Source of the DNA: Arenicella sp.
GTDB lineage: Bacteria > Pseudomonadota > Gammaproteobacteria > Arenicellales > Arenicellaceae
Direction of reading: 5' to 3'
DNA length: 24,000 bases
NCBI GenBank assembly: GCA_047629535.1
Contig: JBLHXJ010000001.1
Span: 41,975 to 65,974 of the forward strand
Both the position numbers and the translations under genes were made by a program. This document shows, piece by piece, positions 1 through 13,845 of the stretch (position 1 is its first letter; every line of letters begins with the position of its first letter). Under the pieces are notes generated by a model. That model saw only the letters and a list, made by a program, of their open reading frames with translations, did not search any database and had not been told where the DNA came from.

Positions 1-1067
1 CGCTTGTAGTAATCGCAATTGTGGCGCTGGTAATCGCGCTATCGTTGTTTCCATCAGCACCCAATACCGAATTAACAGAAGTGGATAGCAGCCTCCCACC
101 AGCCGAAATTGTTCAAAAAGTTTTTGGCCCTATCCAGCCAATAAAAGCGGCTACCGATTTAGACCCTGAGAAAGTTTCTCTAGGTTCGCAATTATTCAGT
201 GACAATATACTGTCTGAAGATAATACCGTCTCCTGTGTAACTTGCCACAGTCTTGAGACCGCTGGTACTAACGGCTTGACCGTGTCGGTGGGCATTGCTG
301 GCGGCGTAAAGCACATCAATGTGCCAACCGTGTTTAATTCAGCGTTGAACTTTGTGCAATTTTGGGATGGCCGAGCAAAAACACTTGAAGAGCAGGTGAG
401 TGGCCCGGTCGAGCATCCGTTGGAGATGGGCTCTACTTGGCCCAGTGTAATTAGCCGCCTGAATGCCAATCGTAATTACCGAGAGCAATTTGCTGATCTC
501 TATACAGAAGGCGTATCAAAAGAGTCGGTTAGTCACGCGCTTGCTGAGTTTGAGCGCTCGCTAAATACACCAGATTCGCCCTTTGACCGGTATTTGAAAG
601 GTGATCTGAATGCTTTGGACGAGAAGCAATTGGCCGGTTATCAATTGTTTAAGCAGCTTGGCTGCATACGCTGTCACCAGGGGCAGGGTGTGGGCGGTAA
701 TATGTTTCAGCGAATGGGAGCTAAAAAAGACTACTTCGCTGGCCGCGATGATTTGACTGAGCACGACATGGGCCGCTTTAACGTGACCGGCGATGAGTAC
801 GATCGACATCGGTTTAAGGTCCCGAGCCTTCGTAATATTGCACTTACCGCACCGTACTTTCATGATAGTAGCGCAGCGACCCTGGAACAGGCTATCCAAA
901 CCATGGCGACCTACCAACTCGGTCGTCGCTTAAAAGATCAAGAAGAACAATTGTTAGTTAGCTTTTTAGAAAGCTTAACCGGCGAATACAAGGGCACTAA
1001 GCTAAGCCTTGGAGCCGTTTTTGAAACAGGCGCCGAGACAGGCGATCAAAACGGCAAAAAACTATGA
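1..1067 (+). CDS. Di-heme cytochrome c peroxidase / MauG-family protein (5' end probably off-window)
   Basis: The reading frame is open from the window edge. The ORF-track start at 21 is a GTG inside a hydrophobic signal-like stretch (..VVIAIVALVIALSLF) with no charged n-region, so the true start is probably upstream. Two CxxCH heme c motifs are present: CVTCH (nt 234-248) and CIRCH (nt 663-677). Family hallmarks FWDGRA, FKVPSLRNIALTAPYFHDSS and LEQAIQTMA are also present. Confidence 0.9.
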   Translation, partial: LVVIAIVALVIALSLFPSAPNTELTEVDSSLPPAEIVQKVFGPIQPIKAATDLDPEKVSLGSQLFSDNILSEDNTVSCVTCHSLETAGTNGLTVSVGIAGGVKHINVPTVFNSALNFVQFWDGRAKTLEEQVSGPVEHPLEMGSTWPSVISRLNANRNYREQFADLYTEGVSKESVSHALAEFERSLNTPDSPFDRYLKGDLNALDEKQLAGYQLFKQLGCIRCHQGQGVGGNMFQRMGAKKDYFAGRDDLTEHDMGRFNVTGDEYDRHRFKVPSLRNIALTAPYFHDSSAATLEQAIQTMATYQLGRRLKDQEEQLLVSFLESLTGEYKGTKLSLGAVFETGAETGDQNGKKL

Positions 1068-3323: not shown

Positions 3324-4169
3324 ATGAAAACACCGAAAAGACTATTGCCGCTGATTGAAGACGGCTTGGTCGACGAAGTCCTTGGTCAACTGATGAGTGG
3401 CAAAGAAGCCACTGTGTATATGGTGCGCTGTGGCTCCGAGGTTCGTTGTGCCAAAGTGTATAAAGAAGCCGCACAGCGAAGCTTCAAAAAAGCAGTGCAA
3501 TACCAAGAAGGCCGTCGTGTGCGTAATAGCCGCCGCGGCCGGGCAATGGAAAAGGGCTCTAAGTTTGGACGCGATCAACAAGAAGAAATTTGGCAAAGTG
3601 CCGAGGTAGACGCCTTATATAAACTTGCCGCCGCTGGGGTGCGAGTGCCAGAGCCCTACGGTTGCTTCAACGGTGTGCTGTTAATGGAGTTAATTACCGA
3701 TGAAGAAGGCTACGTAGCACCGCGTCTAAACGACGTGGAACTAAGCCCAGAACGAGCGCGGCGTGACCATGCCGTGGTTATGCAAGACGTTATTAAAATG
3801 TTATGCGTTGGCCTAATTCATGGCGACTTATCTGAATTTAATGTGTTGGTTGATGAAGTTGGCCCGGTAATTATCGACCTGCCACAAGCCGTTAACGCGG
3901 CGGGTAATAACAATGCAAAAGCCATGCTCGAACGAGACGTGCGCAACATGACTAACTACTATGGCCAATTCGCACCTGAATTACTCGAGAGCGAACACGC
4001 AAAAGAAATTTGGAAGCTCTATGAAAAAGGCGACCTCAAAGCAGATACTAAGCTCACGGGCATTGTCGAAATAGATACTCGCCCAGCTAATGTCGACTCA
4101 GTAATGCTAGAAATCAAAGCGGCTTTCGAAGAACAGGAAGAGCGTTTGCAGCGATTGAGTGATGATTAG
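3324..4169 (+). CDS. RIO-type serine protein kinase/ATPase
   Basis: 281-aa ORF. It has the RIO ATP-loop motif SGKEATVY, the catalytic loop LIHGDLSEFNVL and the metal-binding IIDLPQAV. An AT-rich 124-bp upstream spacer precedes it. Confidence 0.85.
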   Translation: MKTPKRLLPLIEDGLVDEVLGQLMSGKEATVYMVRCGSEVRCAKVYKEAAQRSFKKAVQYQEGRRVRNSRRGRAMEKGSKFGRDQQEEIWQSAEVDALYKLAAAGVRVPEPYGCFNGVLLMELITDEEGYVAPRLNDVELSPERARRDHAVVMQDVIKMLCVGLIHGDLSEFNVLVDEVGPVIIDLPQAVNAAGNNNAKAMLERDVRNMTNYYGQFAPELLESEHAKEIWKLYEKGDLKADTKLTGIVEIDTRPANVDSVMLEIKAAFEEQEERLQRLSDD

Positions 4170-4183
4170 CTATAAGGCTTTGT

Positions 4184-5698
4184 TTATTTTATTGTTGATC
4201 TCTTTTCATCTGTCACCCCGATTTTGCTTCTAACAATCTCCGACTCTTGCGGGCTGAGCTCGACACTTGCATCGATTATTTTTTCAAAATGTGCTGTATC
4301 CCAAGTGTTTTCGCCACTTAAGCAATAAACATAGAGCTCGGGAAAATCTTCAATTGCCAGTTGGTCTTCGATAAAAAGCGTTTCAATTAATTTTGAATCT
4401 TCGCCTTTGCGTTTACTGTCGTAGGCCATGTTCACTGGCAGAGCGTCTTTACGACATAATACGCTGCCTTCCCATAGTCGAATATTTGAGCAATATACTT
4501 TGTTATTTTCTCGTCGGTGGATTAACCAACGAGGTAAAACTGAGGCGGCCTTATTCTGTTTTAAGGCTGATTCTAATTGCCTTGAAAGACGTGTCGGATG
4601 ATACCAATCATCGTCATCCCACTGGCAAACGAACCGGCCCTTGGCCATTTCGATCGAAAAATTGCGCAAATCACCTAGGCTTTTCTTTGCTTCGATCGGC
4701 ACAACGTGATGCCTTATTTCTTTATTATTAAGGCCCTTCAAGAACTTGTGTGTTGCCGTGTCATCAGATTCGCTAATCACGACCAGCTCTTTATGTGAAT
4801 AGCTTTGTGCCTGAAAACAATCAATAGCGCGCTCTAATAGTGCTACCCGGCCACGGGTCACGCACAAACAGGATATTAGCGGGGCTGGAGAGTTTGACGA
4901 CGACGGCTTGTCGGCCAATCTATATTTTGTTTGCTGGGCGTTAGTGGTGATGTCCTTTTGTGCAATCGAACGATAAAACGATGGTGGCCGTTCGTAATAC
5001 AGGGTTAACAGTGAGAGGTTGCGTATATAGCTCTGGGGATCAATGCCGTTAGGCTCACTTGACTGATGCCACAAATGGTAGGCAATGCCCTTAAGTGTTG
5101 CCATTTTGGTAGCAAAAAAGGCTACCCGCTTGGACATGGCGTCGTCTTCTGCACCCCAGCCTTCAAAGCGTTCATCCATACCGCCCGTCGCGTGGTAAAG
5201 TCTTCGTGTAAGGGCGAACGCTCCTCCGCAGAAGGGGGGGTATTGGCCTATCGACTGTCGGTTTGTCTGTTGCCTTGTTCTATTAATATGCAGCGATTGT
5301 GTCTGCGCTAAAAGCTGTTGTGATTCCTCCTGGCTTAGGTCAACTAAAACGTCATACGGATTGATCGCGTCTACATCGTTGTTCATTTGTTGGCAAATCT
5401 CATCTAACGCAGCTGCGCTAATGAGCATGTCTGAATCGGCGAATACCAGCCGCTCACAGCTTGCATAATTAGCGGCGATGTTCAGCCCCCAGGATTTATT
5501 GAAGCGCCCAGAATTCTCAACAAATACATACTTGATGTTAGCTTGCTGTTGGTTTTTAAATTGAGGGGTAGCGTCTTGCTCGACGAGAATTATCTCTAAG
5601 CTTCGGTCGAGGCTGAGCTGCTGTAAAAGGAAGTGTAAGTTATGTTGCCGACCTTGATCAGATTGGCGATAGGTTATTAGGTAAGAGAAGCGATACAT
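4184..5698 (-). CDS. Two-domain glycosyltransferase: N-terminal beta-1,4-galactosyltransferase-like (GT7/Glyco_transf_7C-like) + C-terminal GT2
   Basis: N-domain (aa 1-~215): ILVEQD, RFNKSWGLNIAANYA, FADSDM (DxD) and FCGGAFALTRRLYHATGGMDERFEGWGAEDDAMSKR, which parallels the beta4GalT FGGVSAL...WGWGGEDDD block. C-domain (aa ~270-504): ISCLCVTRGR, ELVVISESDD, LGDLRNFSIEMAKGRFVCQWDDDDWYHP (classic GT2). No TM segment is evident. Confidence 0.85.
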   Translation of the reverse strand: MYRFSYLITYRQSDQGRQHNLHFLLQQLSLDRSLEIILVEQDATPQFKNQQQANIKYVFVENSGRFNKSWGLNIAANYASCERLVFADSDMLISAAALDEICQQMNNDVDAINPYDVLVDLSQEESQQLLAQTQSLHINRTRQQTNRQSIGQYPPFCGGAFALTRRLYHATGGMDERFEGWGAEDDAMSKRVAFFATKMATLKGIAYHLWHQSSEPNGIDPQSYIRNLSLLTLYYERPPSFYRSIAQKDITTNAQQTKYRLADKPSSSNSPAPLISCLCVTRGRVALLERAIDCFQAQSYSHKELVVISESDDTATHKFLKGLNNKEIRHHVVPIEAKKSLGDLRNFSIEMAKGRFVCQWDDDDWYHPTRLSRQLESALKQNKAASVLPRWLIHRRENNKVYCSNIRLWEGSVLCRKDALPVNMAYDSKRKGEDSKLIETLFIEDQLAIEDFPELYVYCLSGENTWDTAHFEKIIDASVELSPQESEIVRSKIGVTDEKRSTIK

Positions 5699-5855
5699 AT
5701 AAATTCTAATTAACGAGTTGCGTCGGGTTTACTGGCGTAAGACTATGCATAACAATATAACGGATAACCGTGTCCGAGTTCTATTAGAGTAAGATGGTTC
5801 ACAGTTGCGGGCAACCGCGTTCATTTCACTGATAATTTAAATTAAAAAGTACACT

Positions 5856-6512
5856 ATGAAACAAGCGCCATCTCCACAAGTATTGATTGGCACGCCTGCT
5901 TACAATGGCATGCTGCATACAGACTATCTGCATTCGATTCTTGGTTTTGTAAAAAATGACATCCCGCATGCGGTGATGACCATTGGTAATGAGAGTTTGA
6001 TCACTCGGGCCAGGAATACAATTTTGGCCAGTTTCTGGGAGGCCGACACGTTTACCCATCTACTTTTCCTTGATGCTGATGTGTTTCTTGACCATCAGGG
6101 CCTTAGCCAAATGCTTAGCCATAATAAAGATGTTGTTGGCGCGCCAGTTTATCTGAAAGGCAAGAACGCAGACGGCGAACAAACCGCAAATACAGATGCC
6201 AAACTGAATGTTCTGCCGGTGCTTCAATCAGTAACTAGAGTTGGCACCGCAGCACTGCTGCTATCACGTTCGGCGGTTAATTCTTTGGTCGCCCACGCAA
6301 TCAAGCAAGATCGGACCTACAGCATAAATAAGATGCTTCGACATGAAGGGATGGCAACCACCCACTACGATGTGTTCAGAGTGGGTATCTCTAATGACGA
6401 GTATTTATCAGAAGATTTTTGGCTTTGCAAAGAATTGCGAGAGCTGGGTCACGAAATTCACGTCGACACCTCGGTATACACTCGCCATAACGGTATGGTC
6501 TGCTTCGACTAG
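5856..6512 (+). CDS. Small putative GT-A fold glycosyltransferase
   Basis: 218-aa ORF. VLIGTPAYNG opens a Rossmann-like strand. It also has SLITRARNTILASF and HLLFLDADVFL (DxD). I cannot assign a CAZy family by eye. It is divergent from the 4184-5698 gene across a 157-bp spacer. Confidence 0.65.
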   Translation: MKQAPSPQVLIGTPAYNGMLHTDYLHSILGFVKNDIPHAVMTIGNESLITRARNTILASFWEADTFTHLLFLDADVFLDHQGLSQMLSHNKDVVGAPVYLKGKNADGEQTANTDAKLNVLPVLQSVTRVGTAALLLSRSAVNSLVAHAIKQDRTYSINKMLRHEGMATTHYDVFRVGISNDEYLSEDFWLCKELRELGHEIHVDTSVYTRHNGMVCFD

Positions 6513-6634
6513 CGCGGTCTTAATATGAGCGCTAGTCGGTAATCCGTGGACCAGTTTTTATAGCTGTACGCTGGAATAAATTTGCCCTAGGCTGATTCGT
6601 CTAGGGCAACGGCTTCGGCGTAAGAAAAACTGAC

Positions 6635-7486
6635 TTATGCCCAGCTAGACTTCGACAAGCTGAAATTAAACGCAACGTTTGAATTTGCTGGCATAGGCGT
6701 GGTTGGCATAGGCGTTGTTGGCATAGACGTGGTTGGCATAGACGTGGTTGGCATAGACGTAGACGTGGTAGTCGGTACGCCTGTAGTCGTTGGTGCAACA
6801 GTAGTCGTTGGTGCGCCTGTAGTCGTTGGTGCAACAGTAGTCGTTGGTGCCGCAGTGGTGGTTGCCACCGGCGCGCAAACTGGATCAGACGAAGAGACAG
6901 TAAATGCTCCAGTTTCACCTAAGCCACTAATGGAACCCGTAGCCGAAGTTGGCACAGTCGCGCTGTTAAGCGTTGCCGTCACTGTAAAGCCAGAGTGCAA
7001 ACCCACAACGCTTACTGCGGTGCCGTTAACAGAGCCTTTTTGAACATCAACTTCATTATTATTTAGAGTCAATGAAACGGTTGCAACGCCGGCTTCAAGT
7101 GTGAGCAGTACGCAACCGCCATTTAATACTGTAATGGGCGCTTCTTCGGCATATGCCTGACCAATGAAAATATCCAGAATATCGTTAACATCAACGCCGT
7201 CATTTTCAGCCTTGGATATCGATATGCCGCCGCCGCCGCCCATTACTACAACAGCAGCACTGGTTTGTGCATGGCTTGGAAGTATTACCGCGTCAAGTAA
7301 TGGCTTTTTCCATTTATCAGGGACTAAGCTAGTTGAAATAACCGCGCCGCCGCCAATTAAGGTATTTCTTAATACTGTACGTCTAGCATTCTTCTGCTCT
7401 ACACCAACAGCTAGCTCTTGTTGCTCAGCTGATTTAGACGAAGGTGTCGCTTCGCTACTCAATGAATCATTTGTATCTTTAGGCAT
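6635..7486 (-). CDS. Exported protein with twin-arginine-like signal and C-terminal Thr/Pro-rich mucin-like repeat tail
   Basis: The ORF is open to TTG 7549, but the first ATG is at 7486 (MPKDTND...), and using it removes the overlap with the divergent gene. ARRTVLRNTLIGGGAVISTSLV is followed by LPSHA|Q, a possible signal-peptidase site. A central region of about 130 aa is rich in Gly/Val/Thr and carries 2 Cys. The tail is APVATTTAAPTTTVAPTTTGAPTTTVAPTTTGVPTTTSTSMPTTSMPTTSMPTTPMPTTPMP (62 aa, 27 Thr), followed by ANSNVAFNFSLSKSSWA. Confidence 0.75.
   Translation of the reverse strand: MPKDTNDSLSSEATPSSKSAEQQELAVGVEQKNARRTVLRNTLIGGGAVISTSLVPDKWKKPLLDAVILPSHAQTSAAVVVMGGGGGISISKAENDGVDVNDILDIFIGQAYAEEAPITVLNGGCVLLTLEAGVATVSLTLNNNEVDVQKGSVNGTAVSVVGLHSGFTVTATLNSATVPTSATGSISGLGETGAFTVSSSDPVCAPVATTTAAPTTTVAPTTTGAPTTTVAPTTTGVPTTTSTSMPTTSMPTTSMPTTPMPTTPMPANSNVAFNFSLSKSSWA
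6689..6874 (-). repeat. In-frame coding tandem repeats (15-bp x5 and 36-bp x2) encoding the PT-rich tract
   Basis: The 15-bp units are at 6690-6704, 6705-6719, 6720-6734, 6735-6749 and 6750-6764 (ggcata[g/a][g/a]cgt[g/t]gtt; units 3 and 4 are identical). They encode MPTT(S/P). The 36-bp units at 6780-6815 and 6816-6851 match at 35 of 36 positions and encode (APTTTV/APTTTG). Confidence 0.95.
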
Positions 7487-7496
7487 TTTTAATACT

Positions 7497-7524
7497 TTGG
7501 CGGTAGTTAATATGGTCTTATAAT
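7497..7524 (+). promoter_or_regulatory. Candidate sigma70-type promoter for the GT32-FkbM / mega-GT operon
   Basis: TTGGCG (7497-7502), a 16-bp spacer, then a perfect TATAAT (7519-7524), about 95 nt upstream of ATG 7620. This is a pattern match only. Confidence 0.3.
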
Positions 7525-7570
7525 AACCCGAATAATAATTGGCTGCCAAGGGCTATAGGTTAACTTCTAG

Positions 7571-7591
7571 GCTACTCTTTGCTAGAGTAGC
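7571..7591. promoter_or_regulatory. Perfect 8-bp inverted repeat (operator or 5'-UTR hairpin candidate)
   Basis: gctactct (7571-7578), ttgct, agagtagc (7584-7591). It lies in the 133-bp divergent spacer between the PT-protein gene and the GT32-FkbM gene, 29 nt upstream of ATG 7620. Confidence 0.3.
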
Positions 7592-7619
7592 GGGAATATC
7601 CCTCCAGCACCGATTGATT

Positions 7620-9437
7620 ATGATTCCTAAAATTATCCACCAAACTTGGAAAACCGATCAGGTTCCAGAGCAGTGGAAGGCATTTGCCCAGTCATGGAAA
7701 TCGCATCACCCCGATTGGGAGTATCGGCTGTGGAGCAACGCTGATGGCGCTGAGTTTGTCGAACATTTCTATCCTCATTTCGAACAGACATATTGGTCCT
7801 ATCGATACGATATACAGCGCGCTGATGCGATTCGCTACCTAATAATTTATCATTATGGTGGTATCTATGCCGACCTTGATTTTGAATGCCTGCAATCATT
7901 TGAGAGCCTACGTGACAATCACAAGCTGGTTATCGGCTTTGAGCCTAAGGAGCATGCGCAGGCTCAATCATTGCAAGAAGTGTTATGCAATGCGTTATTC
8001 GCGTCAAAGCCTCGGTCAAAATTTTTAAAAGCCGTTATTGATTTTTTAATAGCGGACGACACTCCGACGATTGGACTTGGGGATGTATTGAGAACCTCTG
8101 GCCCAGTGATGTTGCAGAATGTGTATGAGCAATTTAATAAAAGTGACGTAGATGCTCATCCGCCGGTCCGCTTTTACCCGTTTGAAAATAATGCCCCAGA
8201 ATTAACCCAGCTAGCCAAAAATTCGGATGAAAGTGAACGCATAAGGCAAAAACTGATAGGTTTGGGTTGTTTTGCGGTGCACCACTGGGCAAATTCATGG
8301 ACCAAAGATTTGGCCGGTGAACTGATGAATCCGAGCGCCGATTCAGTTGAGGGGTTTGATTTTTATCCGATGTATGATTCACCTGGGATGGATTTATTTA
8401 ACGGTGGTAGAGAGGTCGCAGCACTTGCAGAACGATGCAGAGCTGATTCTCAGGTAGTAGCGTTCAATACCGATGGCTTTGCAAAGCACACTATCGCCTC
8501 AATATCTGATTTGAGCGTAATGTTAAACGCGAATCAAAATGAAGGGATATATATAAAAAGACCCATCGCTAACGCTAAAGAGGTTTTAGAGCAGCACGAG
8601 AATATGCAACTGGTCTATATTGCCGCTGCTGGCCCTCGGCCATTTAGTCTGTTTGTCGATCAAACCAACGATCTAGTAATTGCTCAGTTTATTGAGAGTA
8701 ACCGCATTTGGGAGCCGCTTGAAACCGCCTTAGTCAGCAAGTTAGTATCCCCAGGCGAAAACGTAATCGACATAGGAGCCAACATTGGCTATTTCACGGT
8801 ACTTTTTTCGCAACTAGTGGGCGAACAAGGCAAAGTGCTGGCGTTCGAACCGGAAGCAAAAAATTACTCTTTATTAAAGGCCAATATATTAATTAATCGC
8901 TTAGATAATGTGGTTATTGAAAATCAAGCGCTGTCCAATACTCAGGGAGTCGCTGATCTATACTTATCTAGTTACAATAAAGGTGATCATCGACTTGGCT
9001 ACACCGCCGGCCGAGAGAAGCAACAAATTAGCAGTATTGAGCTTGACCAATACCTGTCAGGCAACGCCCTGCCGATTCATTTTATTAAATCCGATACCCA
9101 AGGTCATGAGCTTAAAGTGCTGCAGGGTATGACCAAGTTAATTGAGCGAAATAGTGCATACTTATGCTGCTTGCTGGAATTCTCTCCAGGGTTATTGATC
9201 ACTGCAGAACCTAGAGGCGTTGAAGATTTTATCGATTTCTTTGACTTATTCGAGACCGAAATATATTTGATTCAGGAGGTGGCTCGGAACGCCGAATTAG
9301 TATTAATGGATAGCGCCGCATTGCGGCAACTGGCGCGCATAATGTTGCAGCACGAAGCGCAAGACCATTCCGTCAATACTTTAATTTTTTTTAGCACTAA
9401 CGCTCGAATCAAGTATTTCGCTAAAATGGGTTGGTGA
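7620..9437 (+). CDS. Fusion protein: GT32-type glycosyltransferase (Gly_transf_sug, DXD) - unassigned ~70-aa module - FkbM-family methyltransferase
   Basis: The ORF-track start at 7539 is a TTG. ATG 7620 gives MIPKIIHQTWKT, the canonical GT32 N-terminus. RADAIRYLIIYHYGGIYADLDFECL carries the DXD. The FkbM region (nt ~8616-9398) has VIDIGANIGYFTV, LAFEPEAKNYSLLKANI and IHFIKSDTQGHELKVLQGM. Its stop overlaps the next gene. Confidence 0.85.
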   Translation: MIPKIIHQTWKTDQVPEQWKAFAQSWKSHHPDWEYRLWSNADGAEFVEHFYPHFEQTYWSYRYDIQRADAIRYLIIYHYGGIYADLDFECLQSFESLRDNHKLVIGFEPKEHAQAQSLQEVLCNALFASKPRSKFLKAVIDFLIADDTPTIGLGDVLRTSGPVMLQNVYEQFNKSDVDAHPPVRFYPFENNAPELTQLAKNSDESERIRQKLIGLGCFAVHHWANSWTKDLAGELMNPSADSVEGFDFYPMYDSPGMDLFNGGREVAALAERCRADSQVVAFNTDGFAKHTIASISDLSVMLNANQNEGIYIKRPIANAKEVLEQHENMQLVYIAAAGPRPFSLFVDQTNDLVIAQFIESNRIWEPLETALVSKLVSPGENVIDIGANIGYFTVLFSQLVGEQGKVLAFEPEAKNYSLLKANILINRLDNVVIENQALSNTQGVADLYLSSYNKGDHRLGYTAGREKQQISSIELDQYLSGNALPIHFIKSDTQGHELKVLQGMTKLIERNSAYLCCLLEFSPGLLITAEPRGVEDFIDFFDLFETEIYLIQEVARNAELVLMDSAALRQLARIMLQHEAQDHSVNTLIFFSTNARIKYFAKMGW

Positions 9438-12400
9438 GTATCAACGGTATAAAATACTATTCCATGCTTGAGTCATCCGGCTATGGACTGTCTGCGATTA
9501 GCTATTTGAATGCGTTGCTTGACCTCGAGTGCCCAATACATTGGATTCCACTGGTCTTGGGCGAGCGAGGTTACCAACCATGGTATCAATCGACATCGGC
9601 CGAGCAGCAAGTTCGCCAATTGCTGATCGAGTGTCTGACTGACGACAGTCAAATAGACAGACTGATGGCGTGTCTAGAGCCGATTAACAACTATCAATGC
9701 ATATTCATGCATACCGTGCCGGAGTATTGGCCTCATCTTAAAGAGCCCAATAAATATCAAATCGGCTATAGCGTGTGGGAGACTAGTTGCCTACCTAAGC
9801 ATTTTCCTGAGCTCATCAATCAGCTTGACCGAGTGCTAGTACCCAGCACATTTAATCGACCGATATACGAGCGTTCGGGGGTTGAGATTCCGATAGACGT
9901 GGTGCCGCATATTCTAAATAAGCCCGCGCCTGCGGCTAAGGCGACCGTCGATACTATGCGTAGCTTGATTGAGGTTGCGCCAGAAAACTACCTCTTCTAT
10001 TGCATCAATGAATGGACCGCTCGCAAGGCGCTATGGGTTTTGGTTGACGCCTATCTAAGCAGCTTTAGTGCTGATGACTCGGTGTCTTTAGTACTAAAAA
10101 CATCGGCTCGAGGCCCGCGATCGGAAACCGATGCAGACCAGTACGACACACAACTATTGGTGGCACAAATAGCTGCTGGCTATACTGCACCTGCGCATAT
10201 TAAAGTGATTAATCATAAAATCACTAACCCTGAGATCACCGCATTACACCAACTTGGCGATTGCTTTGTCTCTACCAGTCGTAGCGAAGGCTGGGGCTTG
10301 GGTATGTTTGAAGCTGCGGGAATGGGTAACCCGGTGATTGCTACCGGCTGGGGCGGGCATCTCGATTTTCTTACAGAGCAGTCGAGCTATCTGTCATCCT
10401 ATCAATTGACTCAAGTGGTGGATACTCAAGCTGAATCGTCCTACAGTAGCGAACAACAGTGGGCTCAAGTTGATCAAACAAGTATCTCTAAGCATTTAAA
10501 AACGGTGTTCGCCAATCCTCAATTAGCGCAGCAAAACGCTCAAGATTTGGCTCTAGAGCTAAATGAAAAGTATAATTCAGCACAGCTTGGTATACAGCTC
10601 TATAAAGCAATTATGGCAACTAACATCCCCAAGATTTTTCATTTTATATTCGGTTTGAAAGAACAAACTGAGCCGTTTCATCTGGCCTACTATCTTTGTT
10701 TAAAATCCTGCCTCGAGGTTAACAAGCCGAGCGCGCTACATTTTTACTATCATTACCAACCTTATGGTGAATACTGGGAGTTGATAAAACCTCACCTGAC
10801 GCTAATCGAAGTAGAGTTGGAATCTTTTGTAAAACACAATAACGCCTACCAAGATCACCAAGAAGGTCAGTTTATCAAGGCCGCTAAACTCGATTATGCG
10901 CATCAAGCGGATTTTATCCGCTTAAAAAAATTGATAGAATACGGTGGTGTTTATGCTGACATGGACACCCTATTTGTAAACCCAATACCGGATGATCTGT
11001 ATCAGCATCCGTTTGTGATAGGCCGTGAACAGAGTGTTATCGACCCCGTAAGCAAGAAAAAAAATCCGTCATTGTGCAACGCGCTGCTGATGTCCGAACC
11101 CAATTCAGAGTTCGCGCGCCAATGGCTAAAGGCTAGTTATCAATCGTTTGACGGAACCTGGAGTTCGCACTCGTGCCAGTTAGCGGCGACACTTGCAAGC
11201 GAGTTGCCCGATACGGTGCACATTGCGCCGCAACGTTTCTTCTTCAAGCACATGTGGACAAAGCCGGGTATTAGCTCGTTATTTGAAGAGCTTGATGATG
11301 ACTTCGAGCAAGTCTATAGCATGCATATGTGGAACCATCTGTGGTGGGACCAATCGAGAGTAGACTTTTCGAGTTTTCATCAAGGCTTGATCACCGAACA
11401 AAATATTATGACGGTAGATACCACTTATAATGTTATCGCCAGACAATTTTTACCAACAGCAAGTAAGGCAACAACTAGCCCAATTAACAAAGAGCCCTCT
11501 GAAAAATTGAAAAATTCATCCTCATCAATCTTGATTCCAGTAATAGAAGTTAGTTGGGAACTTTCTCAAGAGCAAGGTTCCAGCCGCTTTTCCAATACTC
11601 AAACGGGCCATTCCTTCGCCACTAACGAAACTACAAATTTAATTCTTCAACAGTGCGATGGAATTAAAAATGTTGACGCTATCATTGATTCGCTGAGTGA
11701 GCGCTTTGGTGATGATTTCGACAGTATAGGGCATGATGTTAAAACTACTTTGCGCGAACTAGCTTTGAGTGGCGCGATTCGATTTAAACAAATCACACCG
11801 GCTCTACCAGTTGTTCAGCCCACGCCGCCCGAGGCACCCTCAAAGCAGTACAAGTTGTGTATTGGCATGGCCACCTACGATGACTATGACGGTGTCTACT
11901 TTTCGGTGCAGGCGATGCGAATGTATCACCCAGAAATATTGGAGCATGTAGAGTTTTTAGTGCTCGACAACAACCCCACAGGCGTTTGCGCCGACGCGCT
12001 AAAAAACCTTGGTGATTGGATCCCAAACTATCGTTATATTGAAGGCGATAATTTCCAAGGAACCTGGTCTCGATTTTCCTTGATTAACCAAACTAACGCT
12101 CCGTATATTTTGTGTATGGATTCGCACGTGATGGTTTTACCCGGAGCGATTAAGCAACTGTTGGATTATATCGACATTCACCCCGACACACCCGACATGC
12201 TGCAAGGGCCACTAGTGGCCGATGATTTGTTTTCCTTGTCATCGCATTTTACGCCCGGCTGGGGTAGTGGCATGTATGGCAAATGGGCAACAGATTCAAG
12301 AGCGGAAGATCTCGACAACCCTGGGTTTGATATCCCAATGCAAGGGCTTGGTTTGTTTGCCTTTCGCAAAGATAGCTGGCCGCAAGTAAACTCACGCTTT

Positions 12401-13309
12401 AAAGGGTTTGGCGGCGAAGAGGGCTATGTGCATGAGAAAGTTCGGCGTGCCGGTGGGCGAACATTATGTCTACCATTTTTACGCTGGGTACACCGCTTTA
12501 ACCGACCGATGGGCACGCGCTATGCGCTCAGTTGGCATGATCGCATTCGCAACTATATGGTCGCGCATGACGAACTGGATGTTGATAATAGCGAGATGAT
12601 TGAACACTTCAATTCGTTTATAGGCGAGGCCGAAACCGCAACAATAGTTGCCGATGTTGAAGCTGAAATTAACAATCCATTCTACTTTTTTGATGCTATT
12701 TACTGTATCAACTTAGATCGACAAGAAGAACGATGGAAGACCGCACAGGCACAATTCGATAAGCTTGGCATTACCCATCGAGTTCAGCGTTTTTCCGCTA
12801 TTGAAACACCCGAAAATCACCATATAGGGTGTGCCTTGTCACACCGAGCAATTATTCAAATGGCATCGGTCAATAAGCACAAAAATGTATTGGTGTTAGA
12901 AGATGATGTGATCTTCGATGCGGCCACACTGACTGATCTTGCAAATAGCCTGGATGAGGCAAAAGCCGAAAGCTGGGATGTATTATATTTAGGTGGACAT
13001 TGTTGGGACAAGCGATATCCACTTGTAAGTGGGCGTGAACATTTAAGAGAACTGGTCAGTGGCGAAGTTGGGCCAACCACAACCCATGCGATTGTCTATG
13101 GCGATTCCAGTTATTCGCAACTGCTTAATGATCTTCCCGAGACTATCGCGCAGATGACAAGCGCCATTGATCAAGGGTGGTTAGCGATTGATCAGTATTT
13201 GGCCGTTGAGACAACGCTAAGAAAGCTGATAACCGAACCTAGAGTGGCAAGTCAGCCACCGCTTCTTATCCAAGAAGAAGATAGCTTTACACCGATACTT
13301 TCGGCATAG
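9431..13309 (+). CDS. 1292-aa multi-domain glycosyltransferase: GT4 - GT32 - PqqD-like - DxH GT-A (GT2/GT27-like) - GT25
   Basis: The start is TTG 9431 or GTG 9434, overlapping the upstream TGA (9435-9437). ATG 9464 would delete the first beta-strand IKYYS. GT4 (aa 1-~392): EX7E in SRSEGWGLGMFEAAGMGNPVIATGWGG (nt 10286-10312). GT32 (aa ~397-672): IPKIFHFIFG and ADFIRLKKLIEYGGVYADMDTLF. PqqD-like: aa ~704-786. GT-A (aa ~806-1045): FLVLDNNP, CMDSHV (nt 12119-12127), GFGGEEGY and WVHRF. GT25 (aa ~1085-1280): AIYCINLDRQEERW, GCALSHRA and VLVLEDDVIF. No TM segment is evident. Confidence 0.85.
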   Translation: MVSINGIKYYSMLESSGYGLSAISYLNALLDLECPIHWIPLVLGERGYQPWYQSTSAEQQVRQLLIECLTDDSQIDRLMACLEPINNYQCIFMHTVPEYWPHLKEPNKYQIGYSVWETSCLPKHFPELINQLDRVLVPSTFNRPIYERSGVEIPIDVVPHILNKPAPAAKATVDTMRSLIEVAPENYLFYCINEWTARKALWVLVDAYLSSFSADDSVSLVLKTSARGPRSETDADQYDTQLLVAQIAAGYTAPAHIKVINHKITNPEITALHQLGDCFVSTSRSEGWGLGMFEAAGMGNPVIATGWGGHLDFLTEQSSYLSSYQLTQVVDTQAESSYSSEQQWAQVDQTSISKHLKTVFANPQLAQQNAQDLALELNEKYNSAQLGIQLYKAIMATNIPKIFHFIFGLKEQTEPFHLAYYLCLKSCLEVNKPSALHFYYHYQPYGEYWELIKPHLTLIEVELESFVKHNNAYQDHQEGQFIKAAKLDYAHQADFIRLKKLIEYGGVYADMDTLFVNPIPDDLYQHPFVIGREQSVIDPVSKKKNPSLCNALLMSEPNSEFARQWLKASYQSFDGTWSSHSCQLAATLASELPDTVHIAPQRFFFKHMWTKPGISSLFEELDDDFEQVYSMHMWNHLWWDQSRVDFSSFHQGLITEQNIMTVDTTYNVIARQFLPTASKATTSPINKEPSEKLKNSSSSILIPVIEVSWELSQEQGSSRFSNTQTGHSFATNETTNLILQQCDGIKNVDAIIDSLSERFGDDFDSIGHDVKTTLRELALSGAIRFKQITPALPVVQPTPPEAPSKQYKLCIGMATYDDYDGVYFSVQAMRMYHPEILEHVEFLVLDNNPTGVCADALKNLGDWIPNYRYIEGDNFQGTWSRFSLINQTNAPYILCMDSHVMVLPGAIKQLLDYIDIHPDTPDMLQGPLVADDLFSLSSHFTPGWGSGMYGKWATDSRAEDLDNPGFDIPMQGLGLFAFRKDSWPQVNSRFKGFGGEEGYVHEKVRRAGGRTLCLPFLRWVHRFNRPMGTRYALSWHDRIRNYMVAHDELDVDNSEMIEHFNSFIGEAETATIVADVEAEINNPFYFFDAIYCINLDRQEERWKTAQAQFDKLGITHRVQRFSAIETPENHHIGCALSHRAIIQMASVNKHKNVLVLEDDVIFDAATLTDLANSLDEAKAESWDVLYLGGHCWDKRYPLVSGREHLRELVSGEVGPTTTHAIVYGDSSYSQLLNDLPETIAQMTSAIDQGWLAIDQYLAVETTLRKLITEPRVASQPPLLIQEEDSFTPILSA
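11540..11788 (+). other. PqqD-like (RiPP-recognition-element-like) domain embedded in the mega-glycosyltransferase
   Basis: EVSWELSQEQGSSRFSNTQTGHSFATNETTNLILQQCDGIKNVDAIIDSLSERFGDDFDSIGHDVKTTLRELALSGAIRF follows the PqqD-family pattern (x-LNetaaxIwxlxDGxxtvxeIvxxLxxxy...DVxxfLxxLxxxGli). It is flanked by Ser/Thr/Pro-rich linkers. Confidence 0.6.
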
Positions 13310-13404
13310 GCCATGCACACTAAATGTTGATTAGAATGCACGCATCTTGGCAAGTAATGTTTTAGTTTATCGTTTAGTTAAATAATCAGATTAAGGTGAC
13401 AATT

Positions 13405-13845
13405 ATGAAGCTTTCTACAGTTAGCCGAAGCTTAATGTTTGCCGGCCTTATTCCTTTTATTGCCGGCACAATAGCAATCGCCCTAAAGCTTGATAGCTGG
13501 TGGATTATCAACGATATTGCGATTAGTTTTGCGTTCTACGCGCTTGCTATCGCCAGCTTTATGTCAGGTACTCATTGGGCCGTGGCGCAGTTGCTCGAGA
13601 ATAGAACTGACTTGCTATTTCACAGTAACTTAATGGTTTTATTGCCGTGGATCGCATTACTTACTTTAGGTGATGGATCTACGTTCTATTTTTTCTTGGC
13701 CTTTGTTTTTTTTAAGCAATACCTGCTCGATCGAAAACTTACAAGTCAGGGGGTTTTTGGTCAACCGTATCTACGTGATCGACGAATAGTCACGACCACC
13801 GTTTGCCTGTCGATGCTGTTTGTTGCGGGCATTAATTTTTACTGA
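13405..13845 (+). CDS. Small 4-TM inner-membrane protein (DUF3429-like)
   Basis: ATG 13405 lies 8 nt after AAGG (13393-13396). The ORF track used GTG 13396. There are four hydrophobic helices and the motif SFMSGTHWA. The family call is from memory and tentative. Confidence 0.6.
   Translation: MKLSTVSRSLMFAGLIPFIAGTIAIALKLDSWWIINDIAISFAFYALAIASFMSGTHWAVAQLLENRTDLLFHSNLMVLLPWIALLTLGDGSTFYFFLAFVFFKQYLLDRKLTSQGVFGQPYLRDRRIVTTTVCLSMLFVAGINFY

What the first reader, a model, noticed from the sequence alone, without database searches (positions are those of the whole stretch)
4184..13309. Compact island of ~8 glycosyltransferase domains wrapped around a mucin-like exported protein: candidate dedicated protein O-glycosylation system
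Seen in sequence: four GT-bearing polypeptides (504, 218, ~605 and 1292 aa) surround, on both sides, a single gene whose product ends in a 62-aa tract that is 44% Thr with regularly spaced Pro. None of the four has an obvious TM helix. Together they carry about eight GT catalytic domains and one FkbM methyltransferase. The substrate-like gene shares a 133-bp divergent control region with the GT32-FkbM/mega-GT operon. Absent from the window: Wzx/Wzy/Wzz, ABC or OPX exporters, an undecaprenyl-phosphate priming transferase and nucleotide-sugar synthesis genes. Established knowledge: bacteria do glycosylate specific proteins in the cytoplasm with dedicated GTs encoded next to the substrate. Examples are HMW1C/HMW1, GtfA/GtfB with serine-rich-repeat adhesins, and Aah/TibC heptosyltransferases with autotransporters. 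Pro/Thr repeats are the classical acceptor for mucin-type O-glycosylation. Inference: this locus builds a multi-sugar, possibly methylated, O-glycan directly on the PT tail. I do not know of this domain combination (GT7-like, GT2, GT32 x2, GT4, DxH GT-A, GT25, FkbM, PqqD-like) as a described system.
Basis: partly seen in the sequence, partly recalled or inferred. Interest (0 to 1): 0.88.

Follow-up and report, generated by a model that had tools for sequence, protein, structure and literature searches.

The report
Dedicated mucin-like protein O-glycosylation island
A marine bacterium carries a compact set of soluble sugar-adding enzymes wrapped around one exported protein with a threonine/proline-rich tail, and the core enzyme, whose nearest solved folds are the animal enzymes that start mucin and collagen glycosylation, sits next to such threonine-rich genes in several bacterial phyla, pointing to an undescribed bacterial protein-glycosylation system.

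Summary
Four polypeptides without membrane helices carry eight glycosyltransferase (GT) domains, one FkbM methyltransferase and one PqqD-like domain. They flank a 283-aa gene whose product ends in a 62-aa tract of 44% Thr and 21% Pro.

The conserved core is the C-terminal module of the 1292-aa protein: a PqqD-like peptide-binding domain (RRE), a DxH GT-A domain and a GT25 domain. In 40 loci of the same order, 23 have a gene with the same N-terminal leader within 2.5 kb, and 15 of those are Thr-rich. Only 2 of 41 dispersed leader genes are Thr-rich. In 80 loci from several phyla, Thr-rich ORFs pile up within 1 kb of the GT gene. No canonical polysaccharide genes recur among the neighbours.

The modelled DxH domain is closest to ppGalNAc-transferases (Z 21-23). 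The GT25 domain matches collagen galactosyltransferase COLGALT1.

The substrate's leader has a Tat-like RRxxLK motif followed by W.KP..D.V.LPAHAQT. It defines a large family (up to 46 copies per genome) that co-occurs with PqqD/NTP_transf_5 loci.

Most likely the Thr tract is O-glycosylated in the cytoplasm before export. No description was found in the literature searched. Chemistry, leader recognition and export route are inferred, not shown.

The parts
4184..5698 (-). GT504: soluble protein with two GT-A domains. N-terminal domain is GT2_2/Glyco_transf_7C-like (aa 24-206, with DSD at 88 and WGAEDD at 181). C-terminal domain is GT2 (aa 281-404, DDDD at 361). Proposed glycan-extending enzyme.
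   Evidence: Pfam; motifs; 63-74% identical orthologues in the same position in five genomes of the genus.
5856..6512 (+). GT218: small GT-A-like protein and the most conserved gene of the island (79-89% identity among orthologues). Proposed glycan-extending enzyme; its family is uncertain.
   Evidence: Weak Pfam hits; synteny; full-length match to phrog_1574, E 2e-13; Atlas look-alikes are mostly viral.
6635..7486 (-). Gene for the 283-aa leader-bearing Thr/Pro-tail protein, the proposed acceptor. From N to C: long n-region, RR at aa 35-36, Gly/Ala-rich h-region, conserved motif aa 59-76, beta-sandwich about aa 125-198 bracketed by the nearly invariant Cys125 and Cys204, PT tract, conserved C-terminal tail.
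   Evidence: No Pfam or NCBIfam family.
7259..7402 (-). Leader segment (aa 29-76): Tat-like ARRTVLR, h-region LIGGGAVISTSLV, then W-KKP-LLDAVILPSHAQTS. In alignment A1, R, W, P, P and HAQT are invariant. A possible signal-peptidase site is SHA|QT.
   Evidence: Alignment A1. The HMM finds it in 60 of 151 genomes of the order and in other phyla.
6692..6874 (-). Thr/Pro tract (aa 205-265): APTTT(V/G) hexapeptide repeats, then MPTT(S/P) pentapeptide repeats. Proposed O-glycosylation sites.
   Evidence: Repeat number differs among orthologues. A 15-bp indel is seen in two DNA runs.
6638..6691 (-). Conserved C-terminal tail PANSNVAFNFSLSKSSWA (consensus PN.N..FNFSLSKS.W in the genus). Function unknown.
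   Evidence: Alignment; coordinates.
7487..7619 (.). 133-bp divergent spacer between the acceptor gene and the GT32-FkbM/mega-GT operon. It holds one promoter-like site on each strand, both 10/12 matches.
   Evidence: The number of sites is not above the shuffled expectation, so this is weak evidence.
7620..9437 (+). GT632/605: GT32-type DXD domain (DNA about 7665-7922) fused to an FkbM-family methyltransferase (DNA about 8769-9152). Proposed sugar addition and O-methylation of the glycan.
   Evidence: Pfam; NCBIfam TIGR01444 at 4.5e-29; synteny.
9431..13309 (+). GT1292 mega-enzyme. Its start (9431, or 9464) overlaps or abuts the stop of the upstream gene. It carries a GT4 domain (Pfam stretch at DNA 10163-10576) and a second GT32 domain (DNA 10823-11137), followed by the core module listed separately below.
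   Evidence: The protein is split or shortened in relatives.
11528..11794 (+). PqqD-like RRE domain (ORF aa about 700-788): three to four beta-strands followed by three helices.
   Evidence: Pfam PqqD at 33.3 bits, above the 23.4-bit cut-off. AF2 model residues 10-98 have pLDDT about 87-92.
11843..12688 (+). DxH GT-A domain (ORF aa about 805-1086), proposed to be the initiating polypeptide O-glycosyltransferase. Motifs: D897-S-H899, GFGGEEGY at 992-999, H1021.
   Evidence: These residues are invariant among 57 homologues (positions). Closest solved folds are ppGalNAc-T2/T4/T10/T12, Z 21-23, rmsd about 3 A over about 255 residues.
12695..13300 (+). GT25 domain (ORF aa about 1089-1290) with invariant E1157-D-D1159. 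Proposed to add the second sugar.
   Evidence: Pfam. Profile match to procollagen galactosyltransferase 1, E 7e-9. Foldseek top hits are COLGALT1.

Best explanation
The island is a dedicated protein O-glycosylation system that works in the cytoplasm.

- Acceptor. The 283-aa protein (6635-7486, minus strand) is made with a long N-terminal leader: a Tat-type RRxxLR motif, a weakly hydrophobic h-region and a conserved W.KP..D.V.LPSHAQTS motif. It ends in a disordered Thr/Pro tract.
- Initiation. The core module of the 1292-aa enzyme recruits the acceptor through a peptide-binding domain. Here that domain is a PqqD-like RRE; in relatives it is TPR repeats. The ppGalNAc-T-like DxH GT-A domain then puts the first sugar on Thr hydroxyls of the tract.
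- Second sugar. The fused GT25 domain, which resembles COLGALT1, adds it.
- Extension. The genus-specific accessory domains (GT4, two GT32, GT7-like/GT2, a small GT-A) extend the chain. The FkbM domain methylates it.
- Export. The glycoprotein then leaves the cytoplasm, probably through Tat, and the leader is probably cut at SHA|QT.

Shown: the domain content; the lack of TM or signal sequences on the enzymes; conserved synteny; the statistical link between this GT module and Thr-rich leader-bearing genes within and across phyla; the fold and motif likeness to protein GTs.

Inferred: the modified residue; the sugars; the order of steps; methylation; that the RRE reads the leader; the Tat route; the cleavage site.
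For: 1. Anatomy. Eight GT domains, FkbM and PqqD sit on four proteins with no TM helix. The acceptor tract is 44% Thr and 21% Pro.

2. Genus synteny. GT504, GT218, the PT gene, GT632 and the mega-GT keep the same order in G015, G021, G009 and G018; G016 holds the same genes with the mega-GT elsewhere on its contig.

3. Order-wide test.
- The DxH domain occurs in 31 of 151 genomes, and 30 of those 31 also carry the leader.
- Of 40 fetched DxH loci, 27 have a leader gene within about 10 kb and 23 within 2.5 kb.
- Of those 23, 15 reach Thr >=40% in a 30-aa window, against 2 of 41 dispersed leader genes. Fisher p = 3e-7; related genomes are not independent.

4. Across phyla. 427 stretches encode relatives of the core. 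In the best 80 loci, ORFs with Thr >=50% occur at 0.136 per kb in the first kb beside the GT gene and 0 in 264 kb at 5-8 kb. They are found in records labelled Gamma- and Alphaproteobacteria, Desulfobulbia, Acidobacteriota, Actinomycetota, Planctomycetota and Fraserbacteria.

5. Minimal precursors of 75-140 aa consist of the leader followed directly by a poly-Thr core, for example ...PAHAQTS-TTTTSTTTSTTTS.

6. The GT carries PqqD or TPR, both of which bind peptides or proteins. In some Acidobacteria and Fraserbacteria the PqqD domain is fused to the Thr-rich protein itself.

7. Fold. The AF2 model has pLDDT 90.4. ppGalNAc-Ts are the top 20 VIA rows, Z 21-23. COLGALT1 is the top Foldseek hit and spans both GT domains. 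The GT25 part hits COLGALT1 by sequence profile. D-x-H, GGEE and the distal His are invariant. Their spacing (GGEE to His = 25 residues) matches what I recall for GalNAc-T2 (E334 to H359); that comparison rests on memory.

8. Neighbours of 22 diverse loci show no recurrent Wzx/Wzy/Wzz/OPX or priming-transferase families.

9. TatC is present in the genome. The RRx[hydrophobic]L[KR] motif is kept even where the rest of the leader differs, for example RRRFVQ in records labelled Bryobacteraceae/Bryobacterales.
Against: - No chemical or expression evidence exists for any glycan.
- Thirteen of the 40 order-level DxH loci, and roughly half of the 80 cross-phylum loci, show no leader-bearing or Thr-rich gene nearby. 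Adjacency is frequent, not universal.
- The leader is much more widespread than the GT: 60 versus 31 genomes, and up to 46 copies per genome, most of them far from any GT or PqqD gene. It may therefore be only an export or sorting signal and not the RRE's ligand. GTs with TPR in place of PqqD also sit beside leader genes.
- I know of no precedent for Tat export of a protein that is already heavily glycosylated.
- The acceptor has two nearly invariant Cys residues. That fits folding outside the cytoplasm.
- The Z-score margin of ppGalNAc-Ts over other GT-A enzymes is modest: 23 against 19.8 for RmlT. A shared fold does not prove a shared acceptor.
Confidence: 0.68

Rival explanations
1. The GT genes build a surface polysaccharide or lipo-oligosaccharide decoration. 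The PT protein is merely a neighbour, for example a secreted structural protein with a flexible linker.
For: GT2, GT4, GT25 and GT32 domains and FkbM methyltransferases are typical of LPS, LOS and EPS loci (family names). Thirteen of 40 order-level DxH loci have no leader gene nearby. One distant locus has an ABC-2 transporter pair beside the GT.
Against: The window holds no priming transferase, flippase, polymerase, chain-length regulator, OPX or ABC exporter, and none recurs among neighbours elsewhere. Thr-rich genes are concentrated within 1 kb of the GT gene across phyla. The core GT is fused to PqqD or TPR modules. Its nearest folds act on proteins.
Confidence: 0.08
2. The PT protein is glycosylated, but by the usual Gram-negative route. 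The soluble GTs would assemble the glycan on a lipid carrier at the inner face of the membrane, and an oligosaccharyltransferase encoded elsewhere would transfer it in the periplasm.
For: This is the established general O-glycosylation route in many proteobacteria (PglL/PglO type; established knowledge). The acceptor has an export signal and two conserved Cys residues, which fits modification after export. The genome is only 73% complete, so missing genes prove little.
Against: The window holds no priming transferase, flippase or OTase. The conserved core enzyme carries a peptide-binding RRE or TPR, which a lipid-carrier pathway would not need. The DxH domain resembles enzymes that glycosylate polypeptides directly.
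Confidence: 0.1
3. The locus is a RiPP-like pathway whose PqqD domain reads the conserved leader, but the chemistry on the acceptor is not Thr O-glycosylation. The modification could fall on other residues, or the GT domains could serve a different, small-peptide substrate.
For: Leader presence tracks NTP_transf_5/PqqD loci: 58 of 60 leader-positive genomes have them, against 15 of 91 leader-negative genomes. In the window's own genome, a leader protein without a Thr tract lies directly upstream of NTP_transf_5, PqqD and HprK-related kinase genes. So the leader system serves other chemistries too.
Against: Thr-rich tracts are specifically enriched next to the GT module and are rare in other leader proteins. 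Minimal precursors have little except Thr after the leader.
Confidence: 0.1

Closest known systems
Polypeptide N-acetylgalactosaminyltransferases (ppGalNAc-T, CAZy GT27), which start mucin-type O-glycosylation
   Same: GT-A fold; D-x-H plus a distal His; a GGE(E/N) motif with similar spacing. They are the best structural matches (Z 21-23, about 255 residues, 16-18% identity). The acceptor there is also a Thr/Pro-rich tract.
   Different: The bacterial domain is soluble and cytoplasmic, not a Golgi type II membrane protein. It has no ricin-type lectin domain and carries PqqD or TPR instead. It is fused to a GT25 domain. No sequence-level hit to any GT27 structure was found. The donor sugar is unknown.
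Procollagen galactosyltransferase COLGALT1/GLT25D1 (GT25), and mimivirus R655
   Same: The same two-domain layout, a GT-A domain followed by a GT25 domain. COLGALT1 is the top Foldseek hit across both domains (E 3e-19). The GT25 part matches by sequence profile at E 7e-9, including the FEDD motif. It also acts on a protein.
   Different: The COLGALT1 acceptor is hydroxylysine in collagen repeats. Here there is no collagen-like repeat and no lysyl hydroxylase. In the bacterial protein, the metal-binding residues of the first GT-A domain are invariant, which suggests it is active.
Serine-rich-repeat adhesin glycosylation with the accessory Sec system (GtfA/GtfB, SecA2/SecY2)
   Same: Same logic: soluble GTs are encoded beside a Ser/Thr-rich exported acceptor with an unusual, conserved, extended signal sequence. 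The acceptor is glycosylated in the cytoplasm by several enzymes in turn and then exported by a route that tolerates the glycan.
   Different: Different enzyme families: GT-B GtfA/B there, GT-A DxH plus GT25 here. The signal differs (KxYKxGKxW there, RR...W.KP..D.V.LPAHAQT here). The host type differs (Gram-positive there). The presumed export route differs (aSec there, Tat-like here). There is only a faint below-threshold hit to GtfA.
RRE-dependent RiPP pathways and glycocins (SunS-type S/O-glycosyltransferases)
   Same: A PqqD-like RRE is fused to a tailoring enzyme. The precursor has a leader-core layout, most clearly in the 75-140-aa relatives. Several paralogous precursors can occur per locus. 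RRE-GT (PF00535) fusions have been noted but not characterised (PMC12710340).
   Different: Here the acceptor is a 283-aa protein with a folded domain. The leader looks like a Tat signal. No leader peptidase or RiPP transporter lies in the window. Glycocin GTs, as I recall, lack an RRE.
HPr-rel-A system (NCBIfam TIGR04352 HprK-related kinase A, TIGR04353 PqqD) with a PF14907 nucleotidyltransferase
   Same: It co-occurs genome by genome with the leader family (58 of 60). In this genome it lies directly downstream of a leader-bearing protein. PF14907 is the most frequent neighbour of the GT module in other phyla (10 of 60 neighbours).
   Different: It is not present in the window. The matches in this genome fall below the curated cut-offs (114.6 versus 200 bits; 14.4 versus 35 bits). 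I know of no published function or substrate for that system.

Membership tests
ppGalNAc-T / GT27 | GT-A catalytic domain with a D-x-H motif and a distal His that bind Mn2+ | tested here: met
   D897-S-H899 and H1021 are invariant in 57 homologues. The model aligns to GalNAc-T2 134-411 at Z 23, rmsd 3.1 A. Metal binding itself was not tested.
ppGalNAc-T / GT27 | Gal/GalNAc-T motif (WGGENxE) | tested here: inconclusive
   GFGGEEGY (992-999) is invariant and lies 25 residues before the distal His, as I recall for GalNAc-T2. No residue-level structural alignment was printed.
ppGalNAc-T / GT27 | C-terminal ricin-type lectin domain and type II membrane anchor | tested here: not met
   No Ricin_B_lectin hit and no TM helix. 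The domain is followed by GT25 and preceded by PqqD.
ppGalNAc-T / GT27 | Sequence-level membership (CAZy family assignment) | tested here: inconclusive
   Neither phmmer nor a profile search against PDB sequences gives any GT27 hit. Pfam places the domain only in Glycos_transf_2. dbCAN was not available.
ppGalNAc-T / GT27 | Transfers GalNAc from UDP-GalNAc to Ser/Thr of a polypeptide | not testable with these tools
   Needs an enzyme assay.
GT25 / COLGALT1-like | GT25 catalytic domain with an (E)DD motif | tested here: met
   Pfam PF01755 at 40.2 bits, above the 24-bit cut-off. Profile hit to COLGALT1 at E 7e-9, with VLEDD aligned to VFEDD. E1157-D-D1159 are invariant.
RRE-dependent (RiPP-like) tailoring enzyme | PqqD-like winged-helix RRE domain | tested here: met
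   Pfam PqqD is above its cut-off. The model shows a beta-sheet plus three helices at pLDDT about 87-92. The specific NCBIfam PqqD models score below their cut-offs.
RRE-dependent (RiPP-like) tailoring enzyme | The RRE binds the leader of the cognate precursor | not testable with these tools
   Only indirect support: co-occurrence, adjacency and PqqD-precursor fusions. It needs a binding assay.
RRE-dependent (RiPP-like) tailoring enzyme | Short precursor peptide with a leader and a core | tested here: inconclusive
   The window's acceptor is a 283-aa protein with a folded domain. Relatives of 75-140 aa have a leader followed by a poly-Thr core.
Tat (twin-arginine) substrate | N-terminal S/T-R-R-x-F-L-K-like motif, weakly hydrophobic h-region, AxA site | tested here: met
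   A-R-R-T-V-L-R, then LIGGGAVISTSLV, then SHA|Q. In A1 the second R is invariant and the first nearly invariant. TatC is present in the genome. No Pfam or NCBIfam TAT_signal hit was found. The stretch between the h-region and the AxA site is unusually long (about 20 aa).
Tat (twin-arginine) substrate | Export depends on TatABC | not testable with these tools
   Needs RR-to-KK and tatC-mutant tests.
Canonical polysaccharide locus (Wzx/Wzy- or ABC-dependent) | Priming transferase, flippase or ABC exporter, polymerase, OPX/PCP genes in the locus | tested here: not met
   None among the Pfam hits of the window's ORFs. None recurs among 60 neighbours in 22 related loci.
SRRP / accessory Sec glycosylation | GtfA/GtfB pair, SecA2/SecY2, KxYKxGKxW signal | tested here: not met
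   Only a 14-bit hit to TIGR02918 GtfA against a 575-bit cut-off. The signal sequence is different. SecA2/SecY2 were not searched for in the genome.
HPr-rel-A system | HprK-related kinase A plus PqqD (TIGR04352/TIGR04353) in the locus | tested here: not met
   Absent from the window. Related genes lie on another contig of the same genome, and their scores fall below the cut-offs.

The most novel reading that the evidence does not exclude
The window is one instance of a widespread, undescribed bacterial maturation system. A conserved Tat-type leader (RRxxLK, h-region, W.KP..D.V.LPAHAQT) would mark a large family of secreted proteins and peptides for PqqD-dependent tailoring in the cytoplasm before export. 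One branch of the system would add mucin-type O-glycans to Thr tracts, using enzymes that share fold and motifs with the eukaryotic initiators of mucin glycosylation (ppGalNAc-T) and collagen glycosylation (COLGALT1). Other branches would use HprK-like kinases and PF14907 nucleotidyltransferases. This would also give those orphan 'HPr-rel-A' loci their substrates.
Probability: 0.35. Interest if true: 0.9.

Novelty: new variant of a known kind. Interest (0 to 1): 0.8.

Why it matters
Dedicated cytoplasmic glycosylation of an adjacent Ser/Thr-rich exported protein is known for only a few bacterial systems, such as serine-rich-repeat adhesins and the HMW1 and autotransporter adhesins. If the reading is right, it matters for several reasons.

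- Here the same logic is carried out by a different enzyme family. Its nearest solved relatives are the animal enzymes that start mucin and collagen glycosylation. The enzyme is coupled to a RiPP-type recognition domain, and its substrate bears a Tat-like leader.
- The core module occurs in hundreds of species in several phyla, including cultured strains (Oricola indica JL-62, Desulforhopalus singaporensis DSM 12130). The hypothesis can therefore be tested directly.
- It would add a new class of bacterial glycoproteins and glycopeptides.
- It would offer a soluble, leader-guided Thr-glycosylating enzyme for glycoengineering.
- It would bear on the evolutionary origin of GT27 and COLGALT1-type enzymes.
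- It would suggest substrates for the orphan PqqD/HprK/PF14907 loci.

Tried and rejected
- Complex prediction. The RRE domain (alignment A3) was modelled with the first 129 residues of the acceptor (alignment A4). The score was 0.30, under the 0.32 mark, so there is no verdict. It is not used for or against binding.
- A phmmer search with ORF aa 791-1292 (P0001:780-1281) against PDB sequences gave no hit.
- Pfam and NCBIfam on the acceptor gave no family. The Atlas feature search on it gave only scores of 0.84 or less, with faint Tat-signal look-alikes, so it was treated as a lead only.
- The AF2 model of the acceptor has a mean pLDDT of 54, and only aa 125-198 are confident. I therefore ran no fold search on it.
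- The promoter and terminator scan of 5600-7700 found no more sites than in shuffled sequence.
- RNA-library contigs do not cover the GT genes. Absence of cover is not interpretable and says nothing about their expression.
- The leader HMM found nothing in the three distant-phylum loci fetched first, L024-L026. The later, larger sample did find leader-bearing ORFs in other phyla.
- Eight literature searches were run: PqqD with GT and twin-arginine; RRE with GT and threonine-rich; HprK-related kinase; bacterial GT27; RiPP O-glycosylated; the leader motif as text; PF14907; cytoplasmic O-glycosylation with Tat. None turned up a description of this system. Subscription journals are not covered.
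- I considered that the leader is simply the RRE's ligand. This is not established, because TPR-type GTs also sit beside leader genes and most leader genes lie far from any PqqD gene.

Full report
**1. What is in the window**

The window is G000:C1:41975-65974. G000 is a 2.68-Mb, 73%-complete metagenome-assembled genome. Its nearest named relatives are Arenicella sp. MAGs.

Between a RIO kinase gene (3324-4169) and a DUF3429 gene (13396-13845) lie five genes:
- GT504, 4184-5698, minus strand.
- GT218, 5856-6512, plus strand.
- A 283-aa protein, 6635-7486, minus strand, counted from the ATG at 7486.
- GT632 (605 aa from the ATG at 7620), ending at 9437, plus strand.
- GT1292, 9431-13309, plus strand. 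The database version starts at 9464.

Pfam gives eight GT domains: GT2_2/7C-like plus GT2; one weak GT-A; GT32; and GT4, GT32, GT2 and GT25 on the 1292-aa protein. It also gives one FkbM methyltransferase and one PqqD domain.

No GT protein has a hydrophobic 19-aa window above a Kyte-Doolittle mean of 1.42. The middle protein has a 62-aa window of 43.5% Thr and 21% Pro, encoded by 15-bp and 18-bp tandem arrays. Nothing else in the 24 kb belongs to a polysaccharide export, polymerisation, priming or nucleotide-sugar family.

**2. The acceptor is more than a PT tail**

Comparison with relatives shows a conserved N-terminal leader with these parts:
- A long polar n-region.
- An RR-x-h-L-[KR] motif (ARRTVLR, aa 34-40).
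- A Gly/Ala/Ser-rich h-region.
- The motif W-x-K-P-x-x-D-x-V-x-L-P-x-H-A-Q-T-[ST] (aa 59-76), with R, W, P, P and HAQT invariant.

The first three parts look like a Tat signal with an AxA site (SHA|QT). TatC is present in the genome. The stretch between the h-region and the AxA site is unusually long and conserved.

After the leader come, in order:
- A second, weaker copy of the motif (DILDIFIGQAYA, aa 102-113).
- A beta-sandwich at about aa 125-198, the only confident part of a poor model. It is bracketed by the nearly invariant Cys125 and Cys204.
- The PT tract (aa 205-265).
- A genus-specific tail, PN.N..FNFSLSKS.W.

**3. Is the PT gene consistently next to the GT genes?**

*Within the genus.* The whole gene order is kept in G015, G021, G009 and G018. 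G016 holds the same genes, with the mega-GT elsewhere on its contig.

*More distant loci.* These share only the last about 500 aa of the mega-enzyme, that is the DxH GT-A domain with or without GT25 and PqqD. They still have a leader-bearing gene with a Thr-rich tract alongside (G033, G022, G036).

*Systematic test in 151 genomes of the order.*
- The DxH domain occurs in 31 genomes, and 30 of them also carry the leader.
- Of 40 fetched DxH loci, 27 have a leader gene within about 10 kb and 23 within 2.5 kb, often under 150 bp away.
- Of those 23, 15 reach Thr >=40% in a 30-aa window.
- Of 41 leader genes sampled elsewhere in these genomes, only 2 are Thr-rich. Fisher p = 3e-7, with the caveat that related genomes are not independent.

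*Across all species representatives.*
- 427 stretches encode relatives of the core module. The record titles name Gamma- and Alphaproteobacteria, Desulfobulbia, Acidobacteriota, Actinomycetota, Planctomycetota, Anaerolineales and Fraserbacteria.
- In the best 80 loci, ORFs with Thr >=50% occur at 0.136 per kb in the first kb next to the GT gene. The density falls to 0.03-0.04 per kb at 1-3 kb and to zero in 264 kb at 5-8 kb.
- Many of these ORFs are 75-140 aa and consist of the leader followed immediately by a poly-Thr core. Records labelled Bryobacteraceae/Bryobacterales use a different Tat-like leader (RRRFVQ). In some Acidobacteriaceae and Fraserbacteria, a PqqD domain is fused to the Thr-rich protein itself.

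*Neighbour families.* Sixty neighbour proteins from 22 diverse loci show one strongly recurrent family, PF14907 NTP_transf_5, in 10 of the 60. No recurrent Wzx, Wzy, Wzz, OPX or priming family appears.

The refuting outcome did not occur.

**4. What the core enzyme looks like**

An AF2 model of ORF aa 691-1292 (P0001:680-1281), built from 57 homologues, has a mean pLDDT of 90.4. It shows three parts:
- A PqqD-type RRE: a beta-sheet plus three helices, model residues 10-98.
- A GT-A domain, model residues 115-396.
- A GT25 domain, model residues 399-600.

Structural and sequence matches:
- Foldseek's best matches are human COLGALT1, spanning both GT domains (E 3e-19), followed by ppGalNAc-T2/T10/T4/T12 and Toxoplasma GalNAc-T3 (E about 1e-12).
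- On second look with VIA-align, the top 20 rows are ppGalNAc-Ts. Z is 21-23, rmsd about 3 A over about 255 residues, and identity 16-18%. The next family, RmlT, reaches Z 19.8.
- A profile of the family hits COLGALT1 by sequence in the GT25 part (E 7e-9).

Invariant residues among the 57 homologues include D897-x-H899, G994-G-E-E997, H1021 and E1157-D-D1159. From memory, the D-x-H, WGGE and distal-His arrangement and its spacing are those of GalNAc-T2 (D224/H226, E334, H359). I could not print a residue-level structural alignment, so this is a lead and not a test.

In relatives, the region before the DxH domain is either PqqD or TPR repeats. Extra fused domains vary: sulfotransferase, or Stealth plus LicD plus cytidylyltransferase. 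Both PqqD and TPR are modules that bind peptides or proteins.

**5. The leader family is larger than the GT system**

- The leader HMM finds 427 ORFs in 60 of 151 genomes, with up to 46 per genome.
- In the closed genomes G163 and G149 the leader genes are dispersed, and in G123, G163 and G149 none lies next to the single PqqD gene.
- Leader presence tracks PF14907. 58 of 60 leader-positive genomes have it; the two exceptions are 71% and 81% complete. Only 15 of 91 leader-negative genomes have it.
- In G163, G123 and G149 the PF14907 gene lies beside the single PqqD gene.
- In the window's own genome, a 552-aa leader protein without a Thr tract lies directly upstream of PF14907, PqqD and an HprK-related kinase gene (contig C94). 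A third leader protein, on contig C26, has no such neighbours.

The leader therefore marks a family of exported proteins that is tied, genome by genome, to PqqD-type tailoring loci. The Thr-rich members are the ones tied to the GT module. Whether the RRE reads the leader remains open, because TPR-type GTs also sit beside leader genes.

**6. Mechanism proposed**

Section 3 and section 4 above give what is shown; the steps below are inferred. The acceptor is made with its leader. The core module docks it through the RRE and places a first sugar on Thr of the tract, using the DxH domain. The GT25 domain adds a second sugar. The genus-specific GT4, GT32 x2, GT7-like/GT2 and small GT-A domains extend the glycan. 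The FkbM domain methylates it. The product is then exported, probably by Tat, and the leader is removed.

Because the enzymes lack signal sequences and TM helices, modification should precede export. That is the logic of the serine-rich-repeat adhesin and accessory Sec systems, carried out here with unrelated parts.

**7. Rivals**

- A polysaccharide or LOS island with an unrelated neighbour: 0.08.
- Lipid-carrier assembly with periplasmic transfer by an OTase encoded elsewhere: 0.10.
- A leader-guided pathway with chemistry other than Thr O-glycosylation: 0.10.

The evidence for and against each is given in the Rival explanations section.

**8. Novelty**

RRE-GT (PF00535) fusions have been noted only as an uncharacterised observation (PMC12710340). 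None of eight full-text searches found a description of this module, its Thr-rich partners or the leader motif.

I rate it a new variant of a known kind, namely dedicated cytoplasmic glycosylation of an adjacent exported acceptor. There is a real chance (about 0.35) that it is one branch of a broader, undescribed, leader-guided maturation system.

**9. Environmental notes**

- Near-identical DNA stands in 'ice metagenome' and 'marine sediment metagenome' runs. X2 and X3 were laid, and most of their pieces are 99% alike or more.
- Those two runs show a 15-bp, one-repeat-unit indel in the tract.
- Contigs of two metatranscriptome libraries from different studies cover parts of the acceptor gene: 6422-6713 at 100% identity, and 6975-7469 at about 98%. 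This is only a weak hint of expression, because RNA libraries can contain DNA.

Noticed in passing
L028 (G000 contig C94): 3220-4878(+), 5003-6121(+), 6021-6413(+), 6410-7255(+): In the same genome, a 552-aa protein carries the same leader and three or four internal 'ILDxxIPxAHA'-like motifs but no Thr tract. Directly downstream lie genes for PF14907 NTP_transf_5, PqqD and an HprK-related kinase A. This looks like a second tailoring locus for the leader family.
   Followed up: partly
Order-wide: G042, G074 (45-46 copies), G063 (26), G033, G149 (20); The leader (RRxxLK...W.KP..D.V.LPAHAQT) defines a large paralogous family of secreted proteins, mostly 170-330 aa. It is found in 60 of 151 genomes. 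No Pfam or NCBIfam model matched the two members scanned whole, and no paper was found.
   Followed up: partly
L125:4345-4854, 4904-5419, 5463-5972; L157:6040-6525; L149:9584-10507: In Acidobacteriaceae, Bryobacteraceae and Fraserbacteria MAGs, the Thr-rich ORF beside the GT begins with a PqqD-like sequence. An RR motif, a hydrophobic stretch and a poly-Thr tail follow. Here the recognition domain is fused to the putative substrate.
   Followed up: no
window 6713-6717 (PT tract): Contigs of two DNA runs (X2, X3) lack 15 bases here, one TTSMP repeat unit. Repeat number also differs among orthologues. The length of the tract therefore varies in nature.
   Followed up: partly
window 6422-6713 and 6975-7469: In the 5800-9500 stretch that was laid, the contigs of two metatranscriptome libraries from different studies lie on the acceptor gene and its 3' flank. 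This is a weak hint that the gene is transcribed.
   Followed up: partly
window 5856-6512 (+): GT218 is the most conserved gene of the island. It matches phage family phrog_1574 (unknown function) over its full length, and its Atlas look-alike clusters are 81-100% viral. It is a small GT-A-like protein shared with phages.
   Followed up: partly
L015 (G021) 7566-11516; L018 (G018) 8035-11935; L016 (G009) 9797-12490: The 1292-aa fusion is not fixed. It is split into three ORFs in G021, interrupted by a TAG in G018, and lacks the GT4 part in G009 and G016. The mega-protein is a recent joining of separable enzymes.
   Followed up: partly
L038 (G042:C7) 8981-11779(-); L019 (G033) 9452-12742(-): Relatives fuse the DxH domain to Stealth plus LicD plus cytidylyltransferase domains, or to a sulfotransferase and TPR repeats. 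This suggests phospho-sugar, phosphocholine-type or sulfate decoration of the same kind of acceptor.
   Followed up: no
window 7148-7183 (-), aa 102-113 of the acceptor: A second, weaker copy of the leader's end motif (DILDIFIGQAYA, compare LLDAVILPSHAQ) lies about 30 aa after the first. It is conserved in paralogues (ILDxxIPxAHA). Its role is unknown.
   Followed up: no
window 1064-3199, 3324-4169, 17045-19603: The flanks hold a DAHL-GAF-adenylate/guanylate cyclase, a bacterial RIO-type kinase, and a Na+/H+ exchanger with a C-terminal cyclic-nucleotide-binding domain. This is a small concentration of cNMP signalling genes with no evident link to the island.
   Followed up: no
L100, L103 (record titles): Contigs carrying the same island at 67-77% identity are labelled Polaribacter sp. 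and Cryomorphaceae MAGs. Every other close copy is gammaproteobacterial, so these are probably binning errors.
   Followed up: no
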